From sequence record MH051335.1: a stretch of DNA of 64,000 bases; one strand, written 5' to 3'. A program made the position numbers and the translations under genes. This document shows, one piece after another, positions 1-64,000 of this stretch (its first letter is position 1; each line of letters opens with the position of its first letter). The notes beneath the pieces were generated by a model, which saw only the letters and a program-made list of their open reading frames with translations, had not been told where the DNA came from and ran no database searches. The stretch is from Escherichia phage vB_EcoM-Ro157lw.

Positions 1-50
1 TCCAGATTAGCAGTTGTGATAAAGTATTGTTCATGATAACCTCTTTAATT

Positions 51-71
51 CCCTTCCCATATCGGGAAGGG
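51..71 (+). terminator. GC-rich hairpin CCCTTCCC-ATATC-GGGAAGGG followed by A/T-rich tract; possible intrinsic terminator
   Basis: Perfect 8-bp inverted repeat with 5-nt loop read directly; downstream CAAATATTATTTT. Confidence 0.35.
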
Positions 72-229
72 CAAATATTATTTTACGCGAAAGAATAGGC
101 GCGTGCCACACAGCGAGTCCCAACGGCCCTCACCATCCCATATCGACCCAACACCAGCAGCGATTGGTCCAGCAGAATTGGCGGCATTGGCCCAGGCGAG
201 TCGTTTAAGCTTCCAACTGCACCAACGAT

Positions 230-463
230 TCACAGTTCGCCTCCAGACTTCAAAATTAATCCCGCATAGATTATTGCCAGAGCTAAAGGCGCACCGTCGC
301 CAGCCTCTCTATTCTCTTTGATTTGAAGAGTATCTTTTAGGAATTGAAGCTGAACGTTGAATTCATTTTCAATTCCAAGCACTCCAGCTAATCCTTTTAC
401 AGAATCTGCATATGCCTTGTCTATCACTTCTTTTGGCACCGTTAAGGTTAATTCATTTGCCAT
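230..463 (-). CDS. hypothetical protein (77 aa)
   Basis: ORF with GGAG-containing RBS upstream of ATG at 463; no recognisable motif. Confidence 0.4.
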   Translation of the reverse strand: MANELTLTVPKEVIDKAYADSVKGLAGVLGIENEFNVQLQFLKDTLQIKENREAGDGAPLALAIIYAGLILKSGGEL

Positions 464-674
464 TTTCTTTCCACTCCACAAATGTACTGCTACTTGTTTC
501 TCTATTTAGCAGGTATCTGCCGCGCATTCCACGAAGGCTGAATTCAACCGTCGATGGATTAGATTTTGAAAGCCACATCACTTGACCGTCGAACGGTCCG
601 CCAACGCATGTGTATTTGGCCTTTGGCTCACTCCTTTTGGGCCTCTTTGCCCGCTCTTTGATTGATAGTCTCAT
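453..674 (-). CDS. hypothetical basic protein (73 aa)
   Basis: ORF in six-frame track; Lys/Arg-rich N-terminus; overlaps neighbours by a few nt as in an operon. Confidence 0.35.
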   Translation of the reverse strand: MRLSIKERAKRPKRSEPKAKYTCVGGPFDGQVMWLSKSNPSTVEFSLRGMRGRYLLNRETSSSTFVEWKENGK

Positions 675-889
675 CAGTCTTCACCTTGAGATTCAAGACA
701 AGTAAGAACAAGCCACGTCATCGGAAGAATCAAAACCAGAGAAATAAGTGACCAAATGGACCAACACAAGATGACAGACTTGAATGTGTGAACGTCGCCA
801 AACGCAGCAGTGAAACAAAATCCCATTACGAAAGCAATCGCTGTGGAGTGATTATCAATGGCTTTGATGGCGCGGTCGATGAGTTTCAT
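674..889 (-). CDS. small membrane protein with two predicted transmembrane helices and charged C-terminus; holin-like
   Basis: 71 aa; hydrophobic stretches AIAFVMGFCFTAAFG and VILCWSIWSLISLVLILPMTWLVL; acidic C-terminal tail; size and topology as in class II holins. Confidence 0.4.
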   Translation of the reverse strand: MKLIDRAIKAIDNHSTAIAFVMGFCFTAAFGDVHTFKSVILCWSIWSLISLVLILPMTWLVLTCLESQGED

Positions 890-1037
890 ATTACCTCCGG
901 TTTTGAGTTAATATGATTATAATGCAGAATTTCAGAAAGGCAAACTTTTTGTGAATTTAAATTAAAAAAATGGCCAGAAATAATCTGGCCAAAAAGATCA
1001 CCCTTTATCCACTACTAAGCTGGAATCATAATTTTAC

Positions 1038-1067
1038 TTGATATAGCTGTCTCAAGCAAACTATAAT
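1038..1067 (+). promoter_or_regulatory. sigma70-like promoter candidate (TTGATA-18 nt-TATAAT) upstream of terminase gene
   Basis: Hexamers read directly; -10 abuts ATG 1068, so the true start codon may be the in-frame ATG at 1101. Confidence 0.3.
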
Positions 1068-2528
1068 ATGAATAAAATATTAACACATAATTGGAAAGTC
1101 ATGTACCAGTTGAATCCTGCTTTAAGAGAAGTCTGGAAGACGAAAGCGCGATACAAAGTCATATACGGCGGTCGTGCATCTTCCAAATCGCACGATGCCG
1201 CTGGTTTTGCTATTTATTTGGCGGCAAACTTCAAATTAAAATTCCTTTGCGTTCGACAATTCCAGAACAAGATTTCTGAATCAGTATATACGCTATTAAA
1301 AGATAAAATAGAGATTTCTGATTTTAAAGACGAGTTCAACTTATTAAAGAACTCTATTGAACACAAAAGAACAAAATCTGAATTTTTATTTTACGGTATC
1401 GCACGCAACGTTGACGAAATCAAATCAACAGAAGGTGTTGATGTTCTTTGGCTTGAAGAAGCGCATGCACTGACTGAAGAGCAATGGGACATCATTGAGC
1501 CGACAATTCGTAAGGAAGGGTCCGAAATATGGATCATATTTAACCCTGATGAAGAGGCTGATTTTGTCTACCAGAACTTTGTCATGCGACCGCCGAAGAA
1601 TGCCATCGTTAAGAAGATTAACTGGCAGGACAACCCATTCTTGTCGCAAACAATGCTGGATGTTATAGCTGGCATGTATGAGCGCGACCCGAAAAAGGCA
1701 GAACACGTTTATGGCGGAGTACCGAAGACTGGCGGCGACAAGTCGGTCATCAACCGTGCATTTGTCAAGGCCGCGCTAAACCTCCACAAACACCCTACGC
1801 TGGGGTGGAGCTTGTCAGGGTCTAACCGTATAGGCTTCGACGTGGCGGACGACGGCGACGACTTAAACGCCACAGCGTTTGTCACAGGCAACGTATTACG
1901 TGGCATCAAGACATGGGAAGGTCTGGAAGATGAATTGCTTAAGTCCGCAAGCGGAGTTTGGAAAGACGCATTGACATTCGGCGCATCAATCACCTATGAC
2001 GCCATCGGTGTTGGTGCATTTGCTGGTTCAAAATTTGATGAGCTTAATGAGTATGCAATCCATGAAAATCCAACATTCCCAAGAATCGAATTTAATGCGT
2101 TCAACGCGCAAGGTGCTGTTGATGATCCTGATGACGTTTTCCTTGAGTTACCACACGTTGAAATACTCAATAAAGACCATTTCGCAAACATAAAAGCGCA
2201 AAAATGGACTGAGATTGCCGAACGATTCAGAAAGACATATGAGTATGCGACAGGGCAAGCCGTATATCCGACCGATGAGTTGATTTCCATCGACACAGAC
2301 GGCATCCCAGAACTTGGTATTCCCGCTTGGTCTGCCGAAGAAATTGAGACGTTTCTTTTTGAGATGTCAGCACCGCGCAAAGACACGTCTGTTCTTGGTA
2401 AGTTCAAAGTTGAATCGAAAAAAGATATGGCAAAGCGTGGAGTCAAATCGCCTAACAAAGCGGACGCAGCAATCATGGCATTGATGAAACCAATTGTTGC
2501 AGCATCCGGCTTCTTCTCTAACCTTTAA
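1068..2528 (+). CDS. terL: terminase large subunit (ATPase plus nuclease)
   Basis: Walker A-like GGRASSKS near N-terminus, Walker B-like VLWLEEAH, acidic nuclease-type C-terminal half; first gene of the structural module. Alternative start at 1101. Confidence 0.85.
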   Translation: MNKILTHNWKVMYQLNPALREVWKTKARYKVIYGGRASSKSHDAAGFAIYLAANFKLKFLCVRQFQNKISESVYTLLKDKIEISDFKDEFNLLKNSIEHKRTKSEFLFYGIARNVDEIKSTEGVDVLWLEEAHALTEEQWDIIEPTIRKEGSEIWIIFNPDEEADFVYQNFVMRPPKNAIVKKINWQDNPFLSQTMLDVIAGMYERDPKKAEHVYGGVPKTGGDKSVINRAFVKAALNLHKHPTLGWSLSGSNRIGFDVADDGDDLNATAFVTGNVLRGIKTWEGLEDELLKSASGVWKDALTFGASITYDAIGVGAFAGSKFDELNEYAIHENPTFPRIEFNAFNAQGAVDDPDDVFLELPHVEILNKDHFANIKAQKWTEIAERFRKTYEYATGQAVYPTDELISIDTDGIPELGIPAWSAEEIETFLFEMSAPRKDTSVLGKFKVESKKDMAKRGVKSPNKADAAIMALMKPIVAASGFFSNL

Positions 2529-2531
2529 CAA

Positions 2532-2771
2532 TTAAAGCATTCCGTGCTGAAGGTCGAGCTTTCTTGCGGCAAACGACCTGGCACGGAATCGCTTACCCGC
2601 CCTTACTGCCTGTCGAATTTTCTTTTGCAAACACTTACGGTCAAAATCGTTGCGGTCGACGGCTTCGAGTAAATCGCGACGCAGTGCACCCAGTGTCGAC
2701 TTATCGGAGACTTCGACGCCGAGCGCGGCTGCAACATCTTTCAAAACATCGAGTTCGGTTAAAGTTCTCAT
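2532..2771 (-). CDS. hypothetical protein (79 aa) with SAP/HeH-like N-terminus and basic C-terminus
   Basis: ORF antisense to the structural operon; N-terminal LTELDVLKDVAAALGVEVSDKSTLGALRRDL resembles a helix-extension-helix DNA-binding motif. Confidence 0.35.
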   Translation of the reverse strand: MRTLTELDVLKDVAAALGVEVSDKSTLGALRRDLLEAVDRNDFDRKCLQKKIRQAVRAGKRFRARSFAARKLDLQHGML

Positions 2772-3184
2772 TTAATAATCCCCTTGATGTCTGATTCTGC
2801 CATGAAGATTGGAGTGCCGCCGCCAGGAACAATCGAGCGCGTAACTTTGTCAAACATATCGTTTTCTTCAACTTGAATACGATAAAATTTATTTTTGGAT
2901 GAAGATGGGCACAATCCCATAAATTTGCCGATTCCGCGAACGCATTCATCTTCAAAGTATACTGTTTCACCTTGAATGGAGTCGATATTGTCTACTGGAT
3001 AGACTTTGCGACCCAACAACCACTCATCCAAAGTCGCCTGCAAGACGTTTCGCGCATCTAAAATCCACGGGTCAATAGTAGCACCTTCGTATCGCGCAGC
3101 AGTGGCCTTTGCCAGTTCTTCATATTCGCATACGTTAACGACTTCGCCGTTGTGTAGGACGACAAATACAATTGTTGTGCTCAT
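2768..3184 (-). CDS. hypothetical protein (138 aa)
   Basis: ORF with 4-nt ATGA overlap to the downstream gene; AT-rich promoter region upstream at 3185-3313. Confidence 0.45.
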   Translation of the reverse strand: MSTTIVFVVLHNGEVVNVCEYEELAKATAARYEGATIDPWILDARNVLQATLDEWLLGRKVYPVDNIDSIQGETVYFEDECVRGIGKFMGLCPSSSKNKFYRIQVEENDMFDKVTRSIVPGGGTPIFMAESDIKGIIK

Positions 3185-3279
3185 TTCAATCTCCTTTCGT
3201 TTGGTTAACTAAAATATAACTCAAAATGATACAAAAGCAAAATATTTTATGAACTATTTATGATCACCATACATATCAT

Positions 3280-3308
3280 TTGCTTACAAACACATGAATA
3301 TTTATAAT
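3280..3308 (+). promoter_or_regulatory. sigma70-like promoter candidate (TTGCTT-17 nt-TATAAT) upstream of portal gene
   Basis: Hexamers and spacing read directly in a divergent intergenic region. Confidence 0.35.
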
Positions 3309-3346
3309 ATAGATTGATTCCCTTTCACTGTCAGGTGGCGTTAACA

Positions 3347-5722
3347 ATGAAAATTCTTGGCATAAAACTCTGGGAGAAGACGCAACCAGAAGCCGAACCA
3401 GCGGAGATGCCGCCAGGCGACCCATTGGCACCGTTTGAACGCCTTGAAAGGCGCGGCAGCGGTCAACGCTGGGAAAAGACTGAAAGCAATCGACCGACCT
3501 TTAAAACGGTTGATGACTTCCCTTTATATGAGCCTGATATTAATGGCGATGGTGTTGCAATCATAAAAGGTCGTTCAGTCGATTCCGCAACAGTATCCAA
3601 AAAGGTTATGGATAATGCCTTAAAGAACATCAGTTCAGAAGGGCAAGTCAACCCATACACAGTACCTATTCAACTTCAAAACTGGTATTTGTCACAGTCA
3701 TTCATCGGCTATCAAGCTTGCGCAATTATAGCGCAGCACTGGCTGGTGAACAAGGCTTGTTCCATGGTAGGCCGCGATGCGGTCCGTAAAGGCTGGGAAG
3801 TTAAATCCAGTTCTGAGTCAGAATTGTCAGTACAAGCCAGCGAACGCCTAAAGCAAATTGATAAAGAATTTAATATCAAAGAGCACTTAGTTGAAGCCGA
3901 ACGATTCAAAAATATTTTTGGTATCCGCGTCATCATATTTGATGTGCGTAGCGATGACCCAGAATATTACAGCAAGCCTTTTAACATTGATGGTGTGACA
4001 AAGGGGTCTTATAAGGGAATCATTCAGGTTGACCCTTATTGGATGATGCCATTTTTGACGTCTGAAAACACCGCCGACCCTGCATCACAGCACTTCTATG
4101 ATCCAGAATACTGGGTGATCAGTGGACAACGTTATCATCGAAGTCACCTCATCATCTTGCGCAATGATGAGCCAGCTGATATTCTCAAGCCAACTTATAT
4201 TTACGGCGGCATTCCTCTGACTCAGCAGATTTATGAACGCATCTATGCCGCTGAACGTACCGCTAACGAAGCGCCATTGCTGGCGATGTCCAAGCGTACA
4301 ACCACGCTGCGGACCGACGTTGACAAGGCTATTGCCAATGAGCGGTCTTTTGCAGAACGTCTGATGATGTGGATCAAGTACCGCGACAACTATGCAGTCA
4401 AAGTGCTTGGCCAAAAAGAAGAGATGGACCAGTTTGACATCAACTTGTCAGACTTCGACAGCATCATCATGAACCAGTACCAGCTTGTGGCCGCAATCGC
4501 AAAAGTTCCGTCGACCAAACTGCTTGGGACTTCGCCAAAAGGCTTTAACGCCACTGGTGAATTCGAGATGGTCAGCTATCACGAAGAGTTGGAAACGTGC
4601 CAGCAGCATGACCTGACAAAAATTCTCGACCGCCATTACAAAATCCTTCTCAAATCAGAAGGGGTGGATGTCGATGTTAAGGTTGCATGGGAACCAGTTG
4701 GCTCACTTACTGCTACTCAACTTGCAGAAATCAATGATAAGCGAGCCAACACTGGCAAAACTCTTATTGATGCTGGCGTCATTTCTCCTGATGAAGAGCG
4801 CGACCGCATCAAAGACGACAAAAACAGCGGCTACAACCGTCTGCCGGAAGACGCAGCAGAAGAAACCCCAGGGATGTCTCCAGAGAATATGGCATTGCTT
4901 GGCAAGTCTGCTGGTGAAGTCCTGCAAGGTAAGGCCGATATTGAACAGGCGAAAGCTGATGTCGTTAAGATGGGCGGCCAGTTCTATAGCGAAACAGGTA
5001 TTATGCCAGAGGGTGCCGCGCGTGGTGAGTTGGCGGAAAACCCTGACAAGGCGCCTGTCGAAATCAACATGGACGATACCGATGATGAATCAAGCCATCA
5101 GGTTGATGTCCTAACGCAGTTGAAAGAAGGGCTGGAGGGTATTGCGGATTACTACCTGAAAGAAGGTCAGGATGTGGATTTTGACCCTCAAAAAGATTCA
5201 CGGTCGGTGCAACCGTCTACCCTTCCAAGCGTTAAAGGACACGTCGTCAACTTACGCCACAACGTGGGTAAAATGGACGCAGCATCATTACCTAAGATGA
5301 AGTTGCACGGAATGATTCTTGGCATTGAGAATCCGCGAAACAGCATTCGTAGAGGAAACAGCCTTGACGGTGAATGGGCCGTGAAGATGCCGCACCACTA
5401 CGGATTCATCAAGGGCACCAAGGGCGCAGACGGTGATGAAGTCGACTGCTTTGTGGGTCCAAATCTGAAGTCGCCGAAAGTCTTTATCGTGAACCAAAAC
5501 GATAACTACTCTGGCGAGTTTGATGAACACAAGTGTATGCTTGGATTCGATTCAGCAGAAGAAGCGAAAGAAGCTTATCAAGCATCATTTGGTAACGGTT
5601 GGAACGGATTCGACTCAATCCACGAATTAGATGTGAACTCATTCAAGGAGTGGTTGAAGGGTGATTGCTCTCAAGCATACGGAGCACTCAATAATCCTAC
5701 TAATTCACCGAAGCAAGGTTGA
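3347..5722 (+). CDS. portal protein with C-terminal inorganic-pyrophosphatase-like extension
   Basis: About 790 aa immediately after the terminase; RBS AGGTGG before ATG 3347; C-terminal 130 aa carry the DGDEVDC motif matching the family I pyrophosphatase signature. Confidence 0.75.
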   Translation: MKILGIKLWEKTQPEAEPAEMPPGDPLAPFERLERRGSGQRWEKTESNRPTFKTVDDFPLYEPDINGDGVAIIKGRSVDSATVSKKVMDNALKNISSEGQVNPYTVPIQLQNWYLSQSFIGYQACAIIAQHWLVNKACSMVGRDAVRKGWEVKSSSESELSVQASERLKQIDKEFNIKEHLVEAERFKNIFGIRVIIFDVRSDDPEYYSKPFNIDGVTKGSYKGIIQVDPYWMMPFLTSENTADPASQHFYDPEYWVISGQRYHRSHLIILRNDEPADILKPTYIYGGIPLTQQIYERIYAAERTANEAPLLAMSKRTTTLRTDVDKAIANERSFAERLMMWIKYRDNYAVKVLGQKEEMDQFDINLSDFDSIIMNQYQLVAAIAKVPSTKLLGTSPKGFNATGEFEMVSYHEELETCQQHDLTKILDRHYKILLKSEGVDVDVKVAWEPVGSLTATQLAEINDKRANTGKTLIDAGVISPDEERDRIKDDKNSGYNRLPEDAAEETPGMSPENMALLGKSAGEVLQGKADIEQAKADVVKMGGQFYSETGIMPEGAARGELAENPDKAPVEINMDDTDDESSHQVDVLTQLKEGLEGIADYYLKEGQDVDFDPQKDSRSVQPSTLPSVKGHVVNLRHNVGKMDAASLPKMKLHGMILGIENPRNSIRRGNSLDGEWAVKMPHHYGFIKGTKGADGDEVDCFVGPNLKSPKVFIVNQNDNYSGEFDEHKCMLGFDSAEEAKEAYQASFGNGWNGFDSIHELDVNSFKEWLKGDCSQAYGALNNPTNSPKQG

Positions 5723-6582: not shown

Positions 6583-7503
6583 ATGACGATACCAATCAGC
6601 ACGTTTCCTATATCTGGACAAACGCCAGTATTACCTGCTGTATATGCGAACGGTTTGGCGATTGTTTCAGAATTTACATCCGATAAAAATTTGATTGTTC
6701 CATTGAGTCCGCCATTGGCATCTGGATACAATTCAGTCGGCCAATTCTTTATGATCGGTAATGATGGCGATTCTACCAGCAAGCCGAATCTGACACTTTC
6801 AGTTCCCAAAATGGACATAACAGACGTGCAGACTGGTTTAACTGCATCTACAATCACCATCGCTTTTGGAGAAGCGGTGATTATAGGCATGGAGTCTGGA
6901 GGGTCCAAGAATGCTGTCGCCGTTAAGGTAGTCAAATCCAGCGGCAACCAATACACGTTACCAGCGGCAACGGCTTCTGTTCTCGGCGGCGTCAAGATAG
7001 GAAGTGGCATAAGTGTTGCAGGTGACGGTACAATTAGTGTTACTCAATACTCGTTACCGATTGCATCAGCATCAACCTTGGGTGGCGTAAAAGTAGGAAC
7101 GACACTATCAATTGATGGTTCTGGCGTCCTTAATGCTGCTGCAAGCACTGTGCAGAACGCAAGCAACAGCGTAAGCAATCCTCCGACAACTCTGGTGAAT
7201 CTGGCAACCTTAAACCTGCCTGCAGGGAAATGGCTTGTGACAGCAAGTCAGTTGACTGTCGCGACAGAAGGAGTTCAAGCGAATACCGGAATTACAGTAA
7301 AATTGTCAACAAGTAATTCAGATATTACGGATGATGCATTCACGATGTCTGCTGGCATTCGGGCTGCAGGTCGTTTCGGCGGCAATATTCCAACAAAGAT
7401 AATTACTCTTGCCGCGCCTGGCAACGTGTATCTAAACTATCAATGCACAGACGCATTGACATCTACCGTTTACGGACAGATCACCGCAATTAAGTTGAAC
7501 TAA
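6583..7503 (+). CDS. virion structural protein with internal S-x-LGGVK-x-G repeats (fibre or decoration-like)
   Basis: Repeats ASVLGGVKIGSGISVAGDGTISV and ASTLGGVKVGTTLSIDGSGVLNA; Gly/Ser/Thr-rich composition. Confidence 0.45.
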   Translation: MTIPISTFPISGQTPVLPAVYANGLAIVSEFTSDKNLIVPLSPPLASGYNSVGQFFMIGNDGDSTSKPNLTLSVPKMDITDVQTGLTASTITIAFGEAVIIGMESGGSKNAVAVKVVKSSGNQYTLPAATASVLGGVKIGSGISVAGDGTISVTQYSLPIASASTLGGVKVGTTLSIDGSGVLNAAASTVQNASNSVSNPPTTLVNLATLNLPAGKWLVTASQLTVATEGVQANTGITVKLSTSNSDITDDAFTMSAGIRAAGRFGGNIPTKIITLAAPGNVYLNYQCTDALTSTVYGQITAIKLN

Positions 7504-7689: not shown

Positions 7690-7965
7690 TAATGACGTAT
7701 CATCCGTATCAAGTAAGTAGTTGTTTTCAAAAGAATCTTACGGATGATACGGATGATACGCGTTGCCGCGATAATTTATAGGAATTCAAATAAATTAATT
7801 TAAAATTATATATCTAATTTAATTTTATTTTTTTATAAACTCTTATATATGAAAAGTATCCGTATCATCCGTATCATCCGTAGCACACCAGTGATAGCGC
7901 GGCTTATACACCGATACGGATAAAAATACGCCTCATTTTATCCGTATCATCCGTATCACACTAAT
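7690..7965. repeat. iteron-like direct and inverted repeats of ATCCGTATCATCCGTATCA flanking an extremely AT-rich core
   Basis: Copies at 7695-7713, 7741-7760 (inverted), 7857-7884, 7911-7921 and 7937-7960; AT-rich core 7770-7856. Confidence 0.7.
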
Positions 7966-8073
7966 TAAGGCGCGGCTATATCGGTTGTTATACATATTCA
8001 AACCATAATTATTGTTTGCCTAAGTTTTTTTCATTAGATATAATACACAATACTTATTTGAGGGTGGATGCGA

Positions 8074-47612: not shown

Positions 47613-48695
47613 ATGGCTAGTTTAAGAGAAGAAGCAAAAATAATCGAAGAGTTTTTGACGGAACTCCAAAGAGGCATTCCAGAAGATGAACGCGTCATGA
47701 CCGTGTTTGCGCCTGAAGCAACGGTGCAGACCGACGAGCGCGGCAAAAAGATTAACAGCAGCTTCTGGCCTAAGCCTTGGAAGCTTGGCAAGCCGCTGAT
47801 GCAACATCAGAACGGTTACGCCTGCATAAGTTCAATGCGTAAGTCTCCCAACCCAAAGACAGGCGAGATGCGATACTGGCGCACGGAATCGGCTTTCGGT
47901 CATGGCATGGCGATGATGGTCGACGACATCGGACACGGTAAAGGGTCAAAGGGCGATTTAGATTTGGAGTTCTTTTTCGAGCGCCTAAAACCAACCGTCA
48001 TCGTCGAGACTTCGCCGAACAACCATCAGCTGTGGTACTTCTTTAAAGAACCGATTGACCATCTTATTCAGTTCAAAGCATTCCTTGGGTCTTTCGTAAA
48101 CATGGTACTCAAGAAGGGCGGCGACAACACGATTAAAGACGTGACGCGCGTGGGCCGTGTTCCTGGGTGCATCAACAACAAGCGTGTGACTCACGACGGC
48201 CCCTATAAATATGTCGATGAGAACGGCGACCCGTTCCGCTGCCGACTTGTCCATGCAGACTATTCCTTGCGCTACACAATCGAAGAGATTTGCCAAGCCT
48301 TCGGTTTCCACGTCGTTATGCCGCAAAAGCGTGAAATTCAAATCGACGTTGACGAATACAAATATGACGCTGTTTGGTATAAGATAGCCCAGCAAATCCT
48401 TGCGCGCAATAAGATGGGCGAAGGGTCAGATGGCGATGTGGTTGAAAACATGTCAGGTAAATGTCGCATCATCTGTCCTTGGGGTGAAGAGCACACCAAC
48501 GGCGACCCATACGGCGCTTATTTTCGCGGCCCAATCCCTGGCGCTGAACATGAATTCGTTTTCGGTTGCGCTCACGACTGTCACCGGAAAGGGGAAGGCA
48601 AGAAAGGATGGACCGCTTTTGTTGAAGCAGTAGTCATGCCTTATATTGAGAATCAACTTGATATGATAAATCGTCGCGCAGGTGGCATAAAATAG
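47613..48695 (+). CDS. putative primase-polymerase (AEP-like) with C-terminal Cys/His zinc-binding cluster
   Basis: Acidic MMVDDIGHG segment, C-terminal CRIICPWGEEH...FGCAHDCH cluster, paired downstream with VirE/D5-like NTPase. Confidence 0.45.
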   Translation: MASLREEAKIIEEFLTELQRGIPEDERVMTVFAPEATVQTDERGKKINSSFWPKPWKLGKPLMQHQNGYACISSMRKSPNPKTGEMRYWRTESAFGHGMAMMVDDIGHGKGSKGDLDLEFFFERLKPTVIVETSPNNHQLWYFFKEPIDHLIQFKAFLGSFVNMVLKKGGDNTIKDVTRVGRVPGCINNKRVTHDGPYKYVDENGDPFRCRLVHADYSLRYTIEEICQAFGFHVVMPQKREIQIDVDEYKYDAVWYKIAQQILARNKMGEGSDGDVVENMSGKCRIICPWGEEHTNGDPYGAYFRGPIPGAEHEFVFGCAHDCHRKGEGKKGWTAFVEAVVMPYIENQLDMINRRAGGIK

Positions 48696-50004: not shown

Positions 50005-51675
50005 ATGTCAATTGAACATGACAATCTTCCAGAGGATACAGGTGATGAATTTGGTGCAATCTTTGACGAAATTCAAGACGCTGGTGTTTCAGAAGAGATG
50101 CAAGCGGCAGAGCAGCAAGGCACCAGAGCTAAAATCAGCCTCCAGCATAAGGCTGTTGAGAAAGATGCAGAGCGCATGGAGTGCTACGGTGAAGAAGACT
50201 TGGTTGAAAGAGCACGTTTGCTCGCCTCACTTCAGGTAATCAAGTTCCCTCACTACAAACCGACGAAAGATGATTTTGTTCTTCAGGCGGACCGGACGAG
50301 TGACATGAACCGTTATGCGGTTTTCGACGCGTTGTTTGATAAGGGAAGCGGCATTGTCCCATTCCCTCACAAAGATACTTTTCGTGGACGCTTAGTCGAC
50401 CATCGCGGCGAAACATTCACCGACCGGACGTTGGAAGTCACAGAGATAGTTGCCGCTGTAGACGCAGCAGGTCTGTCCAACCCAAACTCACGTCAGGTCG
50501 CTCAATCCTATAAGGAATGGGCTATGCGTTATCAGCGCGACGACCTGATGGACTTCTTCTACAAGAAGCTGCCTGAATGGGACGGTACTGCGCGCATTGA
50601 AAAATACCTTATCGAGCTATTCCGACCGTTCGATACAGAGTTAAACCGACAAATCGGTGTGTATTTTTGGCTATCGCTCTATAACCGCCTGACCAATCCT
50701 GGCTGTCAAGCGCCAATCTCCATTGCGCTCATCGGCGGCCAGAACGCAGGGAAGAGTTATTTTAGTAAGCTGCTTTGCGAAGCTATTATGAACGACCGCC
50801 ACGCAACACCGATTCCGTTGAACTTGGCCGCGCAGAACTTCAACCCGTTCTTGCGAGCTATTACGGGTCGCTCAATTATCGCGAACGTTGGTGAGATGAC
50901 AGGCTTTAAAAAGGCCGACATCGAAAACATGAAAGCATTCCTGACTAAGACGGAAGATGACCTGGACTTCAAATTTGAAGATACGCAGGTTAAACCACGC
51001 CAGTGGATTGCTATCATGGACGGCAACGAATACGCAGGCATGCAGCGTGACGATACGGGCAACCGTCGTGTGTATCCTATCTTTGTTGGCCAACTCGCCG
51101 ACAAGGACGGGCAACCGAACTGGTCGAAAGACTTCCAAGCTGACCTTTCCACTTTGAAAGAAGACGTTTGGCAACTGATGGCTGAGTGTGCTGCGTGGAT
51201 GGAGAAGCACGGCGAAGCAGGTTACAACGCGTTTGTCGGTGAAACATCTCGCATGCTTACTGAGTTCAGCAAGAACGAAATGGAACGCGCTCGCGGCGTT
51301 ATCCGTGATGAGATGGTCGACAACGACCTTGTTGAAGTCGTCATCACCGCGCCTTATGACCGACATCACAGCGGACGCTGGCACATCACCAGTGGTGCAA
51401 TCGCTATGGGATTCAGAGCTAAGTGCGGCAAGTCGCCTTTCTCACGTACCCTTGCGCCGCACATGTCGAAGCTTGGATTTGAGCCTGCAACCTATCGCAA
51501 CCAGCGTGGCTACTTTACGCCGCTGATTAAGAATGAAGCAGGGGAATACATTTCTGACTTGATGACTATCTTAGCGTATCTTATCCGCGACGAGTCTGAC
51601 CCTGAAGATATTGAATTCTTGAAGAAGGTTATTGAACGCAAACGTTCTTTAGGAAGAGATAAGGATGAATTCTGA
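50005..51675 (+). CDS. VirE/D5-like P-loop NTPase (primase-associated helicase)
   Basis: Walker A LIGGQNAGKS; 556 aa; shortly downstream of the primase-polymerase candidate. Confidence 0.6.
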   Translation: MSIEHDNLPEDTGDEFGAIFDEIQDAGVSEEMQAAEQQGTRAKISLQHKAVEKDAERMECYGEEDLVERARLLASLQVIKFPHYKPTKDDFVLQADRTSDMNRYAVFDALFDKGSGIVPFPHKDTFRGRLVDHRGETFTDRTLEVTEIVAAVDAAGLSNPNSRQVAQSYKEWAMRYQRDDLMDFFYKKLPEWDGTARIEKYLIELFRPFDTELNRQIGVYFWLSLYNRLTNPGCQAPISIALIGGQNAGKSYFSKLLCEAIMNDRHATPIPLNLAAQNFNPFLRAITGRSIIANVGEMTGFKKADIENMKAFLTKTEDDLDFKFEDTQVKPRQWIAIMDGNEYAGMQRDDTGNRRVYPIFVGQLADKDGQPNWSKDFQADLSTLKEDVWQLMAECAAWMEKHGEAGYNAFVGETSRMLTEFSKNEMERARGVIRDEMVDNDLVEVVITAPYDRHHSGRWHITSGAIAMGFRAKCGKSPFSRTLAPHMSKLGFEPATYRNQRGYFTPLIKNEAGEYISDLMTILAYLIRDESDPEDIEFLKKVIERKRSLGRDKDEF

Positions 51676-59023: not shown

Positions 59024-59432
59024 CCTGACATACGATGTGGCGACAGAAGATTTCGACATCACTCCTGTTCCAGAAAGTCACGAAGGACGTTTTGTTGCAT
59101 ATGAGGACTATGCCGCGCTGGAAGCGAAATGCAGTGAAGCGCAACGCGAGTTGGTTGCATTACGCTCACAGGTCCGTGATGCGTCGGCGCTCGTTAAGCA
59201 GTTGCATGACGTTGTTGCTACTATAGGCGTGGATGTTGATGCGCCGAAGGAGGAAGCGTGGACCGTGTGGTTTGGTGGCGATAATCCGGCGGCTGGGGAA
59301 ATGGTTGAATACAAGCTGCGCAATGGAGGAGATAAAGTGCTGTCAAGAATCTCCGACCATCTTCACTGGGGTCATATAGGCGCGTTAAAGGGCAGCGACA
59401 TCATTGCTTATCGGGTCGTTAAGGAGGGGTGA
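59007..59432 (+). CDS. hypothetical protein (141 aa), C-terminal domain paralogous to 57301-57804
   Basis: Shared C-terminal block ending DIIAYRVV. Confidence 0.45.
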   Translation: MIQRYDLTYDVATEDFDITPVPESHEGRFVAYEDYAALEAKCSEAQRELVALRSQVRDASALVKQLHDVVATIGVDVDAPKEEAWTVWFGGDNPAAGEMVEYKLRNGGDKVLSRISDHLHWGHIGALKGSDIIAYRVVKEG

Positions 59433-59968: not shown

Positions 59969-60240
59969 TGGATAAAAGAACAATTGTTTACGTGTTTTGA
60001 ATAATGGGATGTGTACAATGGGTCGCTTTACGCGGCCTTTTGTTGTTTTGGTCGTGTTTCTTGATGGAATAATTATGAGGCGATGTTTTATTTATTAATT
60101 GTGCGGAAATATTTAGAAATATATATAAACAGGATTGTTAATATTTTAATAGCGTATGACTATTGGTCCGTGGTGTTTGTTAGGAATTATCTATGGATTG
60201 AAATTTTAGTGTCGTGAAACGTGGTGTTTGAACACATTTG

Positions 60241-60600
60241 ATACGCGTAAAATACGGCTAAAAATTAAGCGTATCATGGCTGCAGGCCGCGCCGTTCCTG
60301 GATTCATCCTTTCCAAATTGGTACACCCTTACGTCATGATACGTCATGGTTTTTTATCCGTATCAGTGTACAGCCCTTGCCGCGCCTGGCTTGTACATTA
60401 ATCTTACGGATGATACGGATAAAACTGGGCATCGTTATATATATAATTTGAAAAATTAATTAACTCCATTTTGAATTAATTTAAATTAATTTTTTCTACA
60501 TCCTCATACTTATGTTAATTTATATATTTAACGTATTATCCGTAAGATATAAGTAAAAACAAAGACTTGCGGCAATACGGATGATACGTCATGATACGCT
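60241..60600. repeat. second iteron-like region: ATCCGTATCA-family repeats flanking an AT-rich core
   Basis: TTATCCGTATCAG, CTTACGGATGATACGGATAAAA, TTATCCGTAAG, ATACGGATGATACGTCATGATACG read directly; AT-rich core 60431-60520. Confidence 0.7.
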
Positions 60601-60826
60601 TCAACCAGCCAGCAGCGGCTAAGTCATTGATTTGCATAACACGCGGCGAAAGGGATGGATTTCTTTTATACGTATCAAACAGTACACCAAGCACCACGGT
60701 CCGCTATTCATTAAGCATTGTGATTTATGTACGTTTACAGCCAATTTGAACATCAATCTGCACTTGAATATAATGTTCAATCATTGTATAATTCACACTA
60801 TTAATTTGCACTATGGGATTTGCACT

Positions 60827-61300
60827 ATGAGTCAAGATTATGTAGCAATGCCTGAAGACTTTGAAGACCCGCGATTTGCAGAGCATAATCAGGCATTATT
60901 CGATGAGTTCATTGACCTTGTTATTCAGGGCCATGACATGCGCGCAGCTTTTGCACTAGTATTTGGCATGGAGGTTGCGACCGATAACTACACTGGCCAG
61001 CGAATCCTCTGCACGCAACGCAATCCGTACTACAAGATGCGCTACAAAAAGCGTATGGAAGAGATGCCATTGAAGGAATTGTGGAGCGTAAAGAGTTCCA
61101 TCCACAATTTAGTGAAGCTTGTGCGTGATCCAGAAGTCGCGGCATCAGCCAAGCTTAATGCCATTCGTGAACTGAATATCATCTACGGCATTACGATGAT
61201 TGATGAAAACGGCAATAGTAAAATGGGCCGTTCCATGGATGATTTCTACAAGGATTTTGGAGAGGCGGCCAAAGAGGGTGAGCAATTCTCCCGCCACTAG
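60827..61300 (+). CDS. hypothetical protein (157 aa); start codon lies inside an ATTTGCACTATG motif
   Basis: ATG 60827 in frame of ORF 60632-61300; no conventional RBS spacing. Confidence 0.4.
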   Translation: MSQDYVAMPEDFEDPRFAEHNQALFDEFIDLVIQGHDMRAAFALVFGMEVATDNYTGQRILCTQRNPYYKMRYKKRMEEMPLKELWSVKSSIHNLVKLVRDPEVAASAKLNAIRELNIIYGITMIDENGNSKMGRSMDDFYKDFGEAAKEGEQFSRH

Positions 61301-61319
61301 CCAATTTGCACTATAAAAC

Positions 61320-61353
61320 GGCCCTAGAACACATTTTCTCCACTTCTAGGGCC
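61320..61353 (+). other. stem-loop GGCCCTAGA...TCTAGGGCC (9-bp stem, 16-nt loop)
   Basis: Perfect inverted repeat directly after the stop at 61300; no U-tract. Confidence 0.3.
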
Positions 61354-61728
61354 ATCGGTAATACGACGGGGAAGGCTGCAACCATAAACGCGTTAGAAAG
61401 TGTATTATTATAAGTCATCTTTTAGTCACTTTACGTAACAATTTACGACCTTCAGCCGTCCAGTCGAACGACTCCACCAGCAGATTTGCACTATAACCTA
61501 AGACGATGCGCCCTTTCTCGTTATCAACCCGCCAACAAGTCTCGAATAGCATTCGATTTGCACTATTAACTATCGCCGCAGCGCGCGTTGGGTAAGCGCA
61601 ATTTGCACTATGGTCGTAAAGGGATAAGGTGCGACCACTTCCGATGGACAACGTAGCGATGAGAATAAGCGTATTCATAAGCCACCAATTTGCACTATGA
61701 AAAGCGACCCCGAAGGGCCGCCATTCGA

Positions 61729-62355
61729 TTAGATGATCTGGAAGGTGTAGGACTTGTTGCCGAACTCAAAGTTTAAGCGCCCAGCTTCCTTGAGCTTCAT
61801 ACGGAAGCGAATGTGCTTGCTATCCGGTAAGCCCAGCGCGGCGAACGCTACGCGGACTGATTTGAACTCGCCTACACCCTCGACCATAACGGCGTTACGC
61901 GTGAGACGCTTTTGCGCCACTTCCTTGTTATCCCAACTTTTTGCAATACCTTCGCTATTCGAACGGCGATGGGAAGGACTGGCAATTTTATCCGCGCCAA
62001 CCGGAGTATCATTCAGGCCGCTCTTGACGAATGCTTCATACTCTTCGTCGGTCATCGCGTCGAGTTCTTCCTGAGTCGGCTCGGCCTTTTTAACGACCGC
62101 ACGCGCCTTATGCGTTTTTACATCGCTGGACACTTCCTCGCACGGCTTCGCGTCTGGAATGGGCGATTCGTTGGACGGCTCATCGAGCGCGTTTAAGGAC
62201 TCGATTAACGCGATGACGCGAGTCTCAGCGGTGCGACGGTCCGCAAACTTCTTAATCGGTTTTGAGCCGGAGTTAGCGTTATAGAACGCAACGAGGTCGG
62301 CGGTCTTAGTTGCGATAACGTCGCCGCTAGTAGAGAAACGATTCAAGCTAACCAT
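61729..62355 (-). CDS. hypothetical protein (208 aa)
   Basis: RBS AGGAG upstream on the minus strand; divergent from the downstream plus-strand genes. Confidence 0.45.
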   Translation of the reverse strand: MVSLNRFSTSGDVIATKTADLVAFYNANSGSKPIKKFADRRTAETRVIALIESLNALDEPSNESPIPDAKPCEEVSSDVKTHKARAVVKKAEPTQEELDAMTDEEYEAFVKSGLNDTPVGADKIASPSHRRSNSEGIAKSWDNKEVAQKRLTRNAVMVEGVGEFKSVRVAFAALGLPDSKHIRFRMKLKEAGRLNFEFGNKSYTFQII

Positions 62356-62496
62356 AATAAACTCCTAGTTTGGGAGCGGCGTTAACGACCTATTCGCTAA
62401 CTCATCCCGTCCCGATATGAGTACATTATAATATAGTGTAGAAAAAAGTAAAGCACTTTTTCGATAAAAATGCGATAAATTATTTTATCTTTTTTC

Positions 62497-62524
62497 TTTA
62501 CTTCTTCGTACACTCGCGTATACT
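62497..62524 (+). promoter_or_regulatory. sigma70-like promoter (TTTACT-16 nt-TATACT), copy 1 of a duplicated promoter-leader module
   Basis: Shares TTCGTACACT spacer core and downstream TTTATATCGAGA with the copy at 62894-62922. Confidence 0.4.
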
Positions 62525-62579
62525 TGTTTATATCGAGACGGGCGATGGCCTTCCTTCTACTAGCATCGGGAGCTTTATT

Positions 62580-62882
62580 ATGACTACTTTAATCTCTTCC
62601 ATCCTTACTTACGACGAAGACCGTTTAACCGTTCGCTCTCTTATCGCCGCCGTTAACGCGGAACTAGAATCCAGCGCCATTAAGGTCCGCGCGGTCGCCT
62701 TCGTCGGCCTCTCCTTCGACGAAATTAAATACGCCGAACGTAGCGCCATCCGCTTCGCGAAGACCGACGACGAAGCCGTCACCCTTATCGAGACGGTTAC
62801 GCCGCGCGACGAAGCGTTAATTATCGTCGAGTATATCGACGTAGAAGGCGATAATGCTTATAAATATTTTATCGCAAAATAA
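62580..62882 (+). CDS. hypothetical protein (100 aa)
   Basis: RBS GGGAG; CG-dinucleotide-rich codon usage distinct from the upstream genome. Confidence 0.45.
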   Translation: MTTLISSILTYDEDRLTVRSLIAAVNAELESSAIKVRAVAFVGLSFDEIKYAERSAIRFAKTDDEAVTLIETVTPRDEALIIVEYIDVEGDNAYKYFIAK

Positions 62883-62893
62883 CGAAAAAGTGC

Positions 62894-62922
62894 TTTACTT
62901 ATTCGTACACTAAGACTATAAT
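62894..62922 (+). promoter_or_regulatory. sigma70-like promoter (TTTACT-17 nt-TATAAT), copy 2
   Basis: Hexamers read directly; same flanking sequence as copy 1. Confidence 0.4.
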
Positions 62923-62989
62923 GTTTTATATCGAGAGGGGATGAGGTAGCGAATAGGTCGCTACCCTCCCGACTAACTAGGAGAATATT

Positions 62990-63280
62990 ATGATTACTTT
63001 ATCCGCTATCCGTTCCGCTCGCGTCGAAACTTCCGAAAACTCTAACGTATTTGGCGAAACCTTAGAGAGCGTTTATCTCTCTAACGTAGACGCGATTATC
63101 GAGTCTATTTATGAGCCGATCAACTTTCTCGACCTTTACAAGTATCGCGACGAGGACATCGTATCCTACCGCGTAACGATTAACGGCTTCGTCTATACGA
63201 TTACCGAAATCGGCGGCGAATATATCGCTGTACCGCAACTCGGCGGCGAAGTAACTTACTTTAAAATCGTAAGCCTTTAA
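62990..63280 (+). CDS. hypothetical protein (96 aa)
   Basis: RBS AGGAG; same leader architecture as 62580-62882. Confidence 0.45.
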   Translation: MITLSAIRSARVETSENSNVFGETLESVYLSNVDAIIESIYEPINFLDLYKYRDEDIVSYRVTINGFVYTITEIGGEYIAVPQLGGEVTYFKIVSL

Positions 63281-63291
63281 GGAGAAGAAAG

Positions 63292-63501
63292 ATGACTAAT
63301 ATGAATAACTCTCTTAACGCGCGCGCCCATCGCACCGCCGTAATCGATATGTTTCGCGAGCTTAAGGAATTATGCGATAATATGAACGCGATGTTATCCA
63401 TCGGCGGCTGGGGATACGAAGAAGAAGTTAAATACGCGGTTATGCGTCGCCGTCGCGATAACGTCCTTGGGCAAATTAAACGCGCCGGATTATTCCTTTA
63501 A
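63292..63501 (+). CDS. hypothetical protein (69 aa)
   Basis: RBS AAGGAG; terminator follows. Confidence 0.4.
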   Translation: MTNMNNSLNARAHRTAVIDMFRELKELCDNMNAMLSIGGWGYEEEVKYAVMRRRRDNVLGQIKRAGLFL

Positions 63502-63527
63502 TTATAATCACCCACCGTTACTAATAG

Positions 63528-63550
63528 GCCGCGCTTAGTCGCGGCTTTTC
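63528..63550 (+). terminator. intrinsic terminator (GCCGCG-CTTAGT-CGCGGC then TTTTCTTCG)
   Basis: 6-bp GC stem plus U-rich tract read directly. Confidence 0.5.
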
Positions 63551-63671
63551 TTCGTCCCTATCTCGATGCGCTTCTCCTCGAAAACTCCTTTATCCTTCCC
63601 TTCTTCGTCGCATAATCTTCGTCGAGATGCGCCTTAGTTCGCATAACAGGTATTACGTTAAATGGAGAACA

Positions 63672-63745
63672 TCGCGTAAGTCGTTGTTTTATATAGACAC
63701 CTATATCGGAACGTTAAGGCGGGTCGCGTAAGTCGTTGTTTTATA
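63672..63745 (+). repeat. two direct copies of TCGCGTAAGTCGTTGTTTTATA spaced 52 bp apart in a non-coding stretch
   Basis: Copies at 63672-63693 and 63724-63745; a further direct repeat AATCATTCGCTTTC occurs at 63871 and 63916. Confidence 0.6.
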
Positions 63746-64000
63746 AAGGCGCAAAACTTTCCCTTCGTTCCGAACTAAAACGAGAAATATGCCGACCCTT
63801 CGCCCGAAAATAGTACGCATGCGAAATTACCGACATCTAGAATAATCCCCACCGATATTATTCTGCGCGCAATCATTCGCTTTCGAACTATTATGCTTCA
63901 TATTATTATGCGTCGAATCATTCGCTTTCTAATTGTAACGCTGGAAACTGTAACGGCGATTGATTATTGCGTTCGTGTGGTTTTTAGGGCATGGGTCTTT

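What the first reader, a model, noticed from the sequence alone, without database searches (positions are those of the whole stretch)
7690..7965. Two similar repeat-flanked AT-rich regions 52 kb apart (7.7-8.0 kb and 60.2-60.6 kb)
Both non-coding regions combine direct and inverted copies of ATCCGTATCA / TGATACGGAT (up to ATCCGTATCATCCGTATCA) around a run of more than 80% A+T that includes GAATT(C)A...AATTAATTTAAA in both. This is the classic architecture of iteron-type replication origins, but it could equally be operator arrays for a phage regulator or packaging signals. Two copies at a distance suggests bidirectional control or two origins. Region B lies in an 860-bp ORF-free stretch (59969-60826) that also has G/T-rich tracts.
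Basis: seen in the sequence. Interest (0 to 1): 0.6.

Follow-up and report, generated by a model that had tools for sequence, protein, structure and literature searches.

The report
Duplicated phage DNA-packaging start site
The two repeat-flanked AT-rich regions are two copies of one element of an E. coli Wifcevirus phage: copy B is where the packaging enzyme cuts to make the left end of the virion DNA, next to the small-terminase gene, and copy A is a conserved uncut duplicate in front of the head genes whose job is not known.

Summary
The word ATCCGTATCA/CGTATCAT occurs almost only in 7690-7960 (A) and 60240-60680 (B). In each region, direct and inverted copies bracket a core of about 100 bp that is 83-85% A+T.

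The window is a Wifcevirus, an E. coli myovirus related to Pbunavirus. A and B are paralogues, and each is nearly palindromic.

B is the packaging start. The left virion end and start of the direct terminal repeat, mapped independently in phages WFH and Mansfield, falls at 60467|60468 inside B's core. The gene 360 bp downstream is the small terminase (E=9e-33 to PDB 7UXE).

The same A/B pair sits at the same two genome positions in Serratia phage MTx and in Pseudomonas Pbunaviruses. Each genus has its own repeat word, and in each the mapped end or pac start lies in B's core.

A is not an end in any record. It lacks B's conserved cut-site 18-mer, yet it is kept in 28 of 29 matching records near the window (the Wifceviruses) and in 295 of 299 matching Pbunavirus records.

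Best reading: a pac-type terminase recognition element, duplicated. The role of A is unresolved; it could be a second loading or synapsis site, a regulatory site, or an origin. The iteron-origin reading gained no support from skew, DnaA boxes or gene context, but it is not excluded.

The parts
7693..7711 (+). Element A, left outer arm: two tandem units, GACGTATCATCCGTATCA.
   Evidence: inverted repeat I2 with 7745-7760
7739..7763 (-). Element A, left inner arm: TACGGATGATACGGATGATACGCG, 2.5 units. It is one arm of the perfect 22-nt inverted repeat around the core.
   Evidence: I1, 100% complementary; invariant in 7 Wifceviruses
7765..7856 (.). Element A, AT-rich core: 92 bp, 85% A+T. It has no counterpart of B's cut-site 18-mer.
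7857..7885 (+). Element A, right inner arm: three tandem 9-bp units.
7912..7958 (.). Element A, right outer arms: CGATACGGATAAAAA (- orientation), then TTTTATCCGTATCATCCGTATCA (+ orientation, 2 units).
   Evidence: I8
8016..8044 (+). Sigma-70-like promoter (TTGCCT-17-TATAAT) between element A and the head maturation protease gene, which starts at 8068. The -10 region is conserved in MTx and LBL3.
60237..60365 (.). Element B, outer left units: TGATACGCG / GCGTATCA pair, TACGTCATGATACGTCAT, TTTTATCCGTATCA. This part is mosaic; a second haplotype occurs in WFH, Mansfield and Bas101.
60402..60424 (-). Element B, left inner arm: ATCTTACGGATGATACGGATAAAA. 21 nt are identical to A 7734-7754.
60426..60531 (.). 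Element B, AT-rich core: 106 bp, 83% A+T. It holds the terminase cut.
60458..60475 (+). Cut-site sequence AATTAACTCC|ATTTTGAA. The left end of virion DNA, which is the first base of the terminal repeat, is 60468.
   Evidence: WFH record position 1 aligns to 60468. The Mansfield PhageTerm repeat starts at the same base. The 18-mer is unique in the window and conserved in a relative with 70% TerS identity.
60532..60599 (.). Element B, right arms: CGTATTATCCGTA (+), a 30-nt spacer, then ATACGGATGATACGTCATGATACGC (-, 3 units). These lie inside the terminal repeat and are invariant among 8 Wifceviruses.
60664..60679 (+). Outlying degenerate unit, TTTTATACGTATCAAA.
   Evidence: I4
60746..60792 (+). 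Two overlapping sigma-70-like promoters (TTGAAC-17-TATAAT and TTGAAT-17-TATAAT) upstream of the small-terminase gene.
60827..61300 (+). Small terminase (TerS) gene, 157 aa.
   Evidence: phmmer against PDB 7UXE 'Small terminase', E=9e-33; annotated as TerS in Mansfield; homologues follow element B in MTx and LBL3
60468..64000 (.). One copy of the direct terminal repeat, 3533 bp here. The window ends exactly at the repeat's right end.
   Evidence: WFH 1-3701 equals 67583-71283 at 100% identity. The right-end junction ...GGGCATGGGTCTTT| is identical in Mansfield and at window 64000.

Best explanation
A and B are two paralogous copies of one element of about 300 bp. Arrays of a 9-bp word (core CGTATCAT), in both orientations, bracket a core of about 100 bp that is 83-85% A+T.

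B is the phage's packaging initiation site. Terminase cuts inside its core, between 60467 and 60468. That cut creates the left end of virion DNA and the start of the ~3.5-3.7-kb direct terminal repeat. The small-terminase gene starts 360 bp to the right.

The repeats are most likely the recognition sites of the small terminase, a ring of ten subunits in the solved Pbunavirus homologue. Bound on both sides, it would position the large terminase over the core, as at the pac sites of SPP1 and P1. This step is inferred, not shown.

A lies 16 kb inside the genome from that end, just upstream of the promoter of the protease-scaffold-capsid genes. It is not a virion end and lacks B's conserved cut-site sequence. 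It most likely binds the same protein without being cut. It would then serve as a second loading or synapsis site, or couple terminase level to head-gene expression. That last step is the weakest.
For: Identity of the phage. The window is a Wifcevirus, 92-99% identical to WFH, FEC19, ECML-117 and Mansfield.

The mapped end lies in B's core:
- WFH carries a 3701-bp terminal repeat. Its first base aligns to window 60468 in B's core. Those ends came from abrupt read ends (PMC6563267).
- Mansfield's repeat, predicted by PhageTerm, starts at the identical base and ends at the base matching window 64000 (PMC6753283).

The next gene is the small terminase: E=9e-33 to PDB 7UXE.

A and B are paralogues. 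They give a collinear 4-way alignment at 72% column identity, and pairwise scores 15-27 sd above shuffles.

The pair recurs at the same two positions, each genus with its own word:
- Serratia phage MTx uses CACTTTTC / ACTTTTCG. A and B align over 132 nt at 77% plus 36 nt at 86%.
- Pbunavirus LBL3 and JG024 use GGTAATTTGG.

Ends map to B's core in those genera too:
- MTx's PhageTerm repeat starts there.
- In JG024, 36 of 161 long reads start at 59,376 (PMC10913387), which lies in its B core.
- The Pa193 and Ab28 records start at exactly that base.
- SCUT-S1's predicted pac site is 'in an AT-rich region' (PMC6521218).

Evidence on A:
- It is nearly invariant in 7 Wifceviruses, more conserved than the flanking genes.
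- It is present in 295 of 299 matching Pbunavirus records.
- No record breaks there.
- The cut-site 18-mer is unique to B and conserved in a divergent relative.

A clue for synapsis. The review PMC9611059 reports that the E217 TerS C-terminus is hypothesised to link TerS rings into higher oligomers. That would allow two bound sites to be bridged.
Against: - No binding data exist. The protein that reads the repeats is inferred only from position and from the change of word between genera, where every protein changes.
- A second motif, GCCGC / GCGGC, is conserved across genera and also flanks the cores. It could be the terminase's real target.
- A canonical pac site is single. The need for a second copy is unexplained.
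- In SPP1 the cut is set by distance from the flanking sites, not by the sequence at the cut (title of Djacem et al. 2017, as listed in the reference list read). If that holds here, A might be cut as well.
- Strong sigma-70-like promoters follow both elements. Earlier authors predicted promoters inside the Pbunavirus cores. A transcriptional role therefore remains plausible.
- The ends were mapped in relatives, not in the phage of this window.
Confidence: 0.55

Rival explanations
1. Both elements are replication origins. A phage initiator binds the short repeats and melts the AT-rich core, and replication starts at two sites, as at SPP1 oriL/oriR or P4 ori/crr. At B the opened origin also serves as the terminase substrate. 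Local re-replication from B could supply the second copy of the terminal repeat.
For: - The architecture fits: repeats on both sides of an 83-85% A+T core, with strong cruciform or hairpin potential (z = -6.9 to -7.5).
- The phage encodes its own replication proteins, including a RepB-type primase and a VapE-like helicase.
- In MTx and LBL3 the VapE-like gene ends directly upstream of element B.
- GCGGC-type words point outward on both sides of the cores.
- A is conserved although it is not an end.
- PMC6521218 also suggested that the AT-rich pac region 'could be a replication origin'.
Against: - There is no skew inflection at A. The skew extreme at B matches a change of gene strand.
- There are no DnaA boxes in either region.
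- The units are 9 bp and in mixed orientation, unlike phased iterons.
- In this genome neither element adjoins a replication gene. The helicase gene is 8.6 kb from B.
- The one function actually mapped to the core is the packaging cut.
Confidence: 0.2
2. The arrays are operator or enhancer sites for a phage (or host) transcription factor. It would control the sigma-70-type promoters that follow each element, timing expression of the head genes (after A) and the small terminase (after B). The packaging cut in B would be a separate function that happens to lie there.
For: - Each element is followed within 60-150 bp by strong sigma-70-like promoters and a late-function gene. The -10 region after A is conserved in three genera.
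- Sigma-70 promoters were predicted inside the Pbunavirus cores by earlier annotators (PMC3008698).
- Pbunavirus 14-1 has promoters that need phage factors (PMC10914365).
Against: - The arrays are symmetric about the AT core, not about the promoters, and lie 60-330 bp upstream of them.
- The portal-gene promoter region shows no such arrays: no CGTATC word occurs between 3088 and 7696.
- No candidate regulator was identified. The ten neighbouring or replication-region ORFs scanned gave no DNA-binding domain; only the primase and helicase matched any family.
- This reading does not explain why the genome end falls exactly at the centre of the element in three genera.
Confidence: 0.15
3. A is a second active packaging site. 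It would be cut at low frequency, giving a minority of particles with other ends. Alternatively it is used under particular conditions.
For: - A has the same flanking arrays as B, with an even better inverted repeat.
- In SPP1 the pac cut needs no specific sequence at the cut site (title of Djacem et al. 2017, seen in the reference list read).
Against: - No deposited record starts at A.
- The JG024 long-read analysis reported one start site and one pac fragment (PMC10913387).
- A lacks the cut-site 18-mer that is conserved at B.
- The one contig that breaks in A breaks inside the inverted repeat, not in the core. That looks like an assembly artefact.
Confidence: 0.1

Closest known systems
SPP1 / SF6 pac site (pacL-pacC-pacR) with small terminase G1P
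   Same: Short repeated boxes lie on both sides of the cleavage zone. The site lies immediately upstream of, and reaches toward, the small-terminase gene. The small terminase is a ring. In Pbunavirus the site starts headful packaging.
   Different: Here the element exists in two copies per genome. The repeat word is a 9-bp unit in tandem and inverted arrays. In Wifcevirus and Myosmarvirus the outcome is exact 3.5-3.7-kb terminal repeats, not permuted headfuls. The small- and large-terminase genes are about 9 kb apart. No sequence relationship to SPP1 pac was seen.
Phage P1 pac site (from my own knowledge, not checked here)
   Same: Several copies of a short word (the hexamer TGATCA/G in P1) are clustered on each side of a central region of roughly 80 bp where cleavage occurs.
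   Different: P1's hexamers are Dam-methylation targets and its site is single. The word here has no GATC. There is a second copy, and the ends are exact.
T4 gp16 two-site 'synapsis' model (Black and co-workers; from my own knowledge)
   Same: It is a proposal that small-terminase rings bind two homologous sites some kb apart and pair them before cutting. That is the nearest precedent for a two-copy terminase recognition element.
   Different: The T4 sites are short sequences inside genes 16 and 19, and T4 has no unique packaging start. The model itself is not established. Nothing here shows that A and B pair.
Two-site phage origins: SPP1 oriL/oriR (G38P) and P4 ori/crr (alpha protein); from my own knowledge
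   Same: Two distant cis elements carry the same short repeats next to AT-rich DNA and are bound by one phage protein.
   Different: Those elements are defined by replication assays and lie in or beside the initiator gene. Here the only mapped function is a packaging cut, and no origin test was positive.
Putative pac site of Pbunavirus JG024 / SCUT-S1 (PMC10913387, PMC6521218)
   Same: This is the homologous locus of element B. Read starts at 59,376 and a 'Pac site in an AT-rich region' were reported.
   Different: As far as the passages I searched in those two papers show, they do not describe the flanking repeat arrays, the adjacent small-terminase gene, or the second copy upstream of the head protease gene. 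Their phages are headful packagers, whereas this one has exact terminal repeats.

Membership tests
pac-type packaging initiation site | A physical genome end or first packaging cut maps inside the element. | tested here: met
   This holds for B only. WFH and Mansfield ends align to 60467|60468. MTx, JG024, Pa193 and Ab28 ends lie in their B cores. The ends were mapped in relatives, not in this isolate.
pac-type packaging initiation site | It lies in or next to the small-terminase gene. | tested here: met
   The TerS gene (E=9e-33 to PDB 7UXE) starts 360 bp right of the cut. The order is the same in MTx and LBL3.
pac-type packaging initiation site | Small terminase binds the flanking repeats specifically. 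| not testable with these tools
   This needs EMSA, footprinting or ChIP. Only position and the genus-specific change of repeat word support it.
pac-type packaging initiation site | There is a single site per genome. | tested here: not met
   A second full copy (A) exists and is conserved in three genera. A has no mapped end and lacks the cut-site 18-mer.
Exact direct-terminal-repeat genome (T7/T5-style ends) | The same sequence is present at both virion ends, with fixed boundaries. | tested here: met
   The WFH record has its first 3701 bp identical to its last 3701 bp. The boundaries are identical in Mansfield. The window holds one copy, 60468-64000.
Iteron-type replication origin | There are several direct repeats of about 17-22 bp, usually phased, which bind an initiator. 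| tested here: not met
   The units are 9-bp words (8 bp in MTx and LBL3) in both orientations, arranged as inverted arrays around the core.
Iteron-type replication origin | There is an adjacent AT-rich unwinding region. | tested here: met
   The cores are 83-85% A+T over 92-106 bp.
Iteron-type replication origin | It lies within or beside the initiator or replication genes. | tested here: inconclusive
   This is not so in this window: the VapE-like helicase gene ends 8.6 kb before B, and A lies among head genes. In MTx and LBL3, however, the VapE-like gene ends directly upstream of B.
Iteron-type replication origin | There are host DnaA boxes or a strand-composition switch at the site. | tested here: not met
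   There are no DnaA boxes within one mismatch in A or B, and genome-wide they occur at chance level. Cumulative GC skew passes through A without inflection.
Iteron-type replication origin | It supports initiation of replication. | not testable with these tools
   This needs marker-frequency sequencing or a plasmid origin assay during infection.
Operator array of a transcription regulator | The sites overlap or closely adjoin the regulated promoter. | tested here: inconclusive
   The best sigma-70-like promoters lie 58 bp (A) and 147 bp (B) beyond the last array. Only weak promoter-like matches fall in the cores. TSS tables for the Pbunavirus relative were not available.

The most novel reading that the evidence does not exclude
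Packaging in this lineage may need two cis sites. Small-terminase rings loaded on A and B would pair them, 16-20 kb apart, before the cut at B. This would be a working example of the synapsis idea proposed for T4. Alternatively, the element may be a combined origin and packaging module. Initiation in the AT core would then both replicate the genome and create the extra copy of the terminal repeat that exact-repeat phages need.
Probability: 0.2. Interest if true: 0.75.

Novelty: new variant of a known kind. Interest (0 to 1): 0.5.

Why it matters
Relatives of this phage matter in practice. Pbunaviruses are among the Pseudomonas phages most used for personalised therapy (PMC11990801). They and other phages are now rebuilt from synthetic DNA, where knowing the true ends and cis-acting sites is essential.

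This work adds four things:
- It places the packaging start of Wifcevirus to the base.
- It names the small-terminase gene, which several records, including the BASEL ones, still call hypothetical.
- It shows what the site is built of.
- It shows that the site has an unexplained, strongly conserved twin in front of the head genes in three genera.

How phages with long exact terminal repeats make their ends is still poorly understood. A two-copy recognition element is a concrete, testable lead.

Tried and rejected
- Inverted versus direct orientation. My first local alignments suggested that B is an inverted copy of A. A 4-way alignment and scoring of both orientations show that each element is nearly palindromic and aligns both ways. 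In MTx and LBL3 the long alignments are direct.
- GC skew as an origin test. Skew follows gene strand and gives nothing at A.
- DnaA boxes. None in A or B.
- Rfam. No RNA family anywhere in the window.
- Pfam and PHROGs on neighbouring small ORFs. No DNA-binding candidate emerged.
- A more distant relative, Xanthomonas phage FoX7. It has no recognisable A/B pair.
- A Pbunavirus record that seemed to lack A (FBPa35). It also lacks most of the essential protease gene, so it is probably a faulty assembly and says nothing.
- An IMG/VR contig ending in A. The break is inside the inverted repeat, so it is likely an assembly artefact.
- The 16-mer scan of viral contigs. Apart from four Wifcevirus contigs it gave only single chance hits.
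- TSS tables of the 14-1 transcriptome paper, and the E217 terminase paper. Neither was available.
- Polarity of the dispersed GCGCGGC word as a fork-direction marker. The polarity is too weak to use.
- Structure prediction of TerS. It was not needed once the PDB sequence match was found.

Full report
**1. What is there**

The window is almost a whole genome of a Wifcevirus, an E. coli/Shigella myovirus of about 68 kb related to Pseudomonas Pbunavirus. The two regions match WFH, FEC19, ECML-117, Mansfield, the BASEL phages Bas98-101 and others at 92-99% identity (PMC11990801, PMC6563267).

- ATCCGTATCA has 8 exact copies, all in 7702-7958 or 60356-60420. Allowing one mismatch gives 14 copies against 3.3 expected.
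- The 8-mer core CGTATCAT has 12 copies against 2.0 expected, and 11 of them lie in the two regions.
- Units follow each other every 9 bp and occur in both orientations.
- In A a perfect 22-nt inverted repeat (7739-7760 / 7861-7882) encloses a 100-nt stretch that is 85% A+T. In B a 27-nt imperfect one (60391-60417 / 60532-60558) encloses 114 nt at 83% A+T.

**2. The two regions are copies of one element**

A four-way alignment of A and B from this window and from phage WFH is collinear over about 290 bp, with 72% mean column identity. Pairwise alignment scores are 15-27 standard deviations above shuffles in either orientation. Each element is itself close to a palindrome, which is why it aligns both ways. 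My first impression that B is an inverted copy therefore does not stand as such.

A is almost invariant among seven Wifceviruses, more so than the flanking genes. The right half of B is invariant among eight. Its left half exists in two unrelated versions that switch near 60400.

**3. B is the packaging start**

Three lines of evidence agree.
- The WFH record carries the same 3701 bp at both ends. Its first base aligns to window 60468, in the middle of B's AT core. Its last base aligns to window 64000. Those ends were set where most reads stopped abruptly (PMC6563267).
- The Mansfield record has a PhageTerm-predicted 3673-bp terminal repeat. It starts at the identical base (...TTAACTCC|ATTTT...) and ends at the identical junction (...GGGCATGGGTCTTT|) (PMC6753283).
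- The ORF that starts 360 bp to the right (60827-61300) is the small terminase. It matches PDB 7UXE 'Small terminase' at E=9e-33 over its full length. That entry holds ten chains, and the review PMC9611059 describes the E217 (Pbunavirus) small terminase as a decamer. Mansfield's annotators reached the same assignment.

The 18-mer spanning the cut, AATTAACTCCATTTTGAA, is unique in the window even with three mismatches allowed. It is kept unchanged in a metagenomic relative whose small terminase is only 70% identical and whose surrounding core has diverged.

**4. The pair is old and evolves in concert**

Serratia phage MTx (Myosmarvirus; its head protease is 54% identical) has a like element between a small ORF and the head protease gene. 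It has a second one across its record ends. Both are built from CACTTTTC / ACTTTTCG instead of CGTATCAT, and they align with each other over 132 nt at 77% and 36 nt at 86%. Its PhageTerm terminal repeat starts in the core of the second element, and its small-terminase homologue follows.

Pbunavirus LBL3 and JG024 have the same two elements, built from GGTAATTTGG / CCAAATTACC. Pbunaviruses package by the headful. In JG024, 36 of 161 long reads start at 59,376 (PMC10913387). That position lies in the core of its B element. The records of Pa193 and Ab28 begin at exactly that base. [quoted passage not shown]

So in three genera B is where packaging starts, whether the phage makes exact repeats or headfuls. 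In each genus A carries the same genus-specific word as B, so one and the same protein must read both. A is 16-20 kb from the packaging start in all three. It is present in 295 of 299 matching Pbunavirus records. A more distant relative, FoX7, shows no such pair.

**5. How it most likely works**

Shown:
- The anatomy of the two elements.
- The paralogy of A and B.
- The position of the end in B's core.
- The identity of the neighbouring gene.
- The conservation of the pair across three genera.

Inferred:
- The repeats are small-terminase binding sites. [quoted passage not shown]
- A, which has the arrays but not the cut-site sequence and is never an end, binds the same protein without being cut.

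What A does with that protein is open. It could pair with B before cutting; the E217 small terminase is thought to stack into higher oligomers (PMC9611059). It could tie head-gene expression to terminase level, since a strong sigma-70-like promoter at 8016-8044, conserved in three genera, follows it. Or it could do something else.

My confidence is about 0.9 that B is the packaging start. It is about 0.55 that the small terminase reads the repeats. It is no more than 0.3 for any single role of A.

**6. Rivals**

An origin of replication fits the architecture. It also fits the fact that A is conserved without being an end. In MTx and LBL3 the VapE-like helicase gene ends right before B. But skew shows nothing at A, and there are no DnaA boxes. 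The units are not iteron-like, and in this genome no replication gene is adjacent.

A regulatory array is suggested by the promoters that follow both elements. It is also suggested by promoter predictions inside the Pbunavirus cores. But the arrays are centred on the core, not on a promoter.

A second active pac site at A is possible if cutting needs no specific sequence, as in SPP1. But no record or published read-start analysis points there.

**7. Comparison and novelty**

The kind is known: a pac-type terminase recognition site, here giving exact terminal repeats. The homologous Pbunavirus locus has twice been called a putative pac site.

As far as the searchable literature shows, three things are new:
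- The build of the site, with arrays of a genus-specific word around the cut.
- Its link to the now structurally solved small terminase.
- Above all its conserved twin in front of the head genes.

I therefore file it as a new variant of a known kind, of moderate interest.

**8. Other observations**

- A GCGGC-containing heptamer is the most, or nearly the most, over-represented 7-mer genome-wide in all three genera. The counts are GCGCGGC 67 against 10-19 expected here, CAGCGGC in MTx and TCGCGGC in LBL3.
- Copies of that word flank the cores, pointing outward on both sides.
- The tract left of B is the most G/T-rich stretch of the window.

None of these is explained. The GCGGC word could be the real target of a conserved protein, which is one reason for caution about the terminase-binding step.

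Noticed in passing
whole window; for example 7897-7903, 7970-7976, 60286-60292, 60379-60385: The heptamer GCGCGGC occurs 67 times against 10.3 expected from dinucleotide shuffles and 14-19 from order-2/3 Markov models. It is the top or second most over-represented 7-mer, about one per kb on both strands. Relatives show the same with CAGCGGC (MTx, 57 against 19-26) and TCGCGGC (LBL3, 80 against 31-34). Around the AT cores of A and B the word reads GCCGC on the left and GCGGC on the right. Function unknown; it could be a primase site, a recombination signal or a protein target.
   Followed up: partly
window 59975-60235: This is the most G/T-rich 260 bp of the window (0.66 against a mean of 0.50, sd 0.03). 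The same tract lies left of element B in MTx (0.76) and LBL3 (0.66). Those two also have a C/A-rich tract on the right (G+T 0.33 and 0.29), which forms the leader of the small-terminase mRNA.
   Followed up: partly
window 60400 (left half of element B, 59970-60400): This is a mosaic junction. Wifceviruses carry one of two unrelated sequences left of about 60400. The window, Bas100, EC150, CWP003 and WFC have one; WFH, Mansfield and Bas101 have the other. Everything to the right, inside the terminal repeat, is nearly identical.
   Followed up: partly
window 64000 and beyond (L003 3701-3840): The window ends exactly at the right end of the terminal repeat (...GGGCATGGGTCTTT|). Just past it, WFH has two copies of AAATTTGCAGTACACT about 96 bp apart. 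No copy of the CGTATCAT word occurs there, so the right-end cut must be specified differently from the left-end cut.
   Followed up: no
window 61474-61481 (- strand): A Chi sequence (GCTGGTGG on the bottom strand) lies 1 kb inside the left end. It is oriented to act on RecBCD entering from that end. CCACCAGC also occurs just right of element B in MTx and in LBL3/JG024. Three Chi sites in the window is not more than chance.
   Followed up: partly
window 47613-48695 and 50005-51675: A RepB-type primase (PF16793, 1.6e-36) and a VapE-like helicase (PF05272, 1.6e-28) are encoded here. Both are annotated simply as 'DNA primase' in relatives. In MTx and Pbunavirus the VapE-like gene directly precedes element B. 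Here about 8 kb of small ORFs have come between them.
   Followed up: partly
window 7408-7422 and 60376-60390: A 15-mer, CTTGCCGCGCCTGGC, is shared between the end of the gene upstream of A and the left part of B. It contains the GCCGCGC word.
   Followed up: no
L006, L042, L062 (IMG/VR contig 3300045988_152943): A 68.5-kb metagenomic Wifcevirus contig is opened inside the inverted repeat of element A (equivalent to window 7736). This is most likely an assembly break at the repeat rather than a physical end.
   Followed up: partly
window 60827-61300: The small-terminase gene is annotated as 'hypothetical protein' in several Wifcevirus records, including the BASEL phages, WFH and WFC. It lies about 9 kb from the large-terminase gene (1068-2528) across the genome end.
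   Followed up: yes
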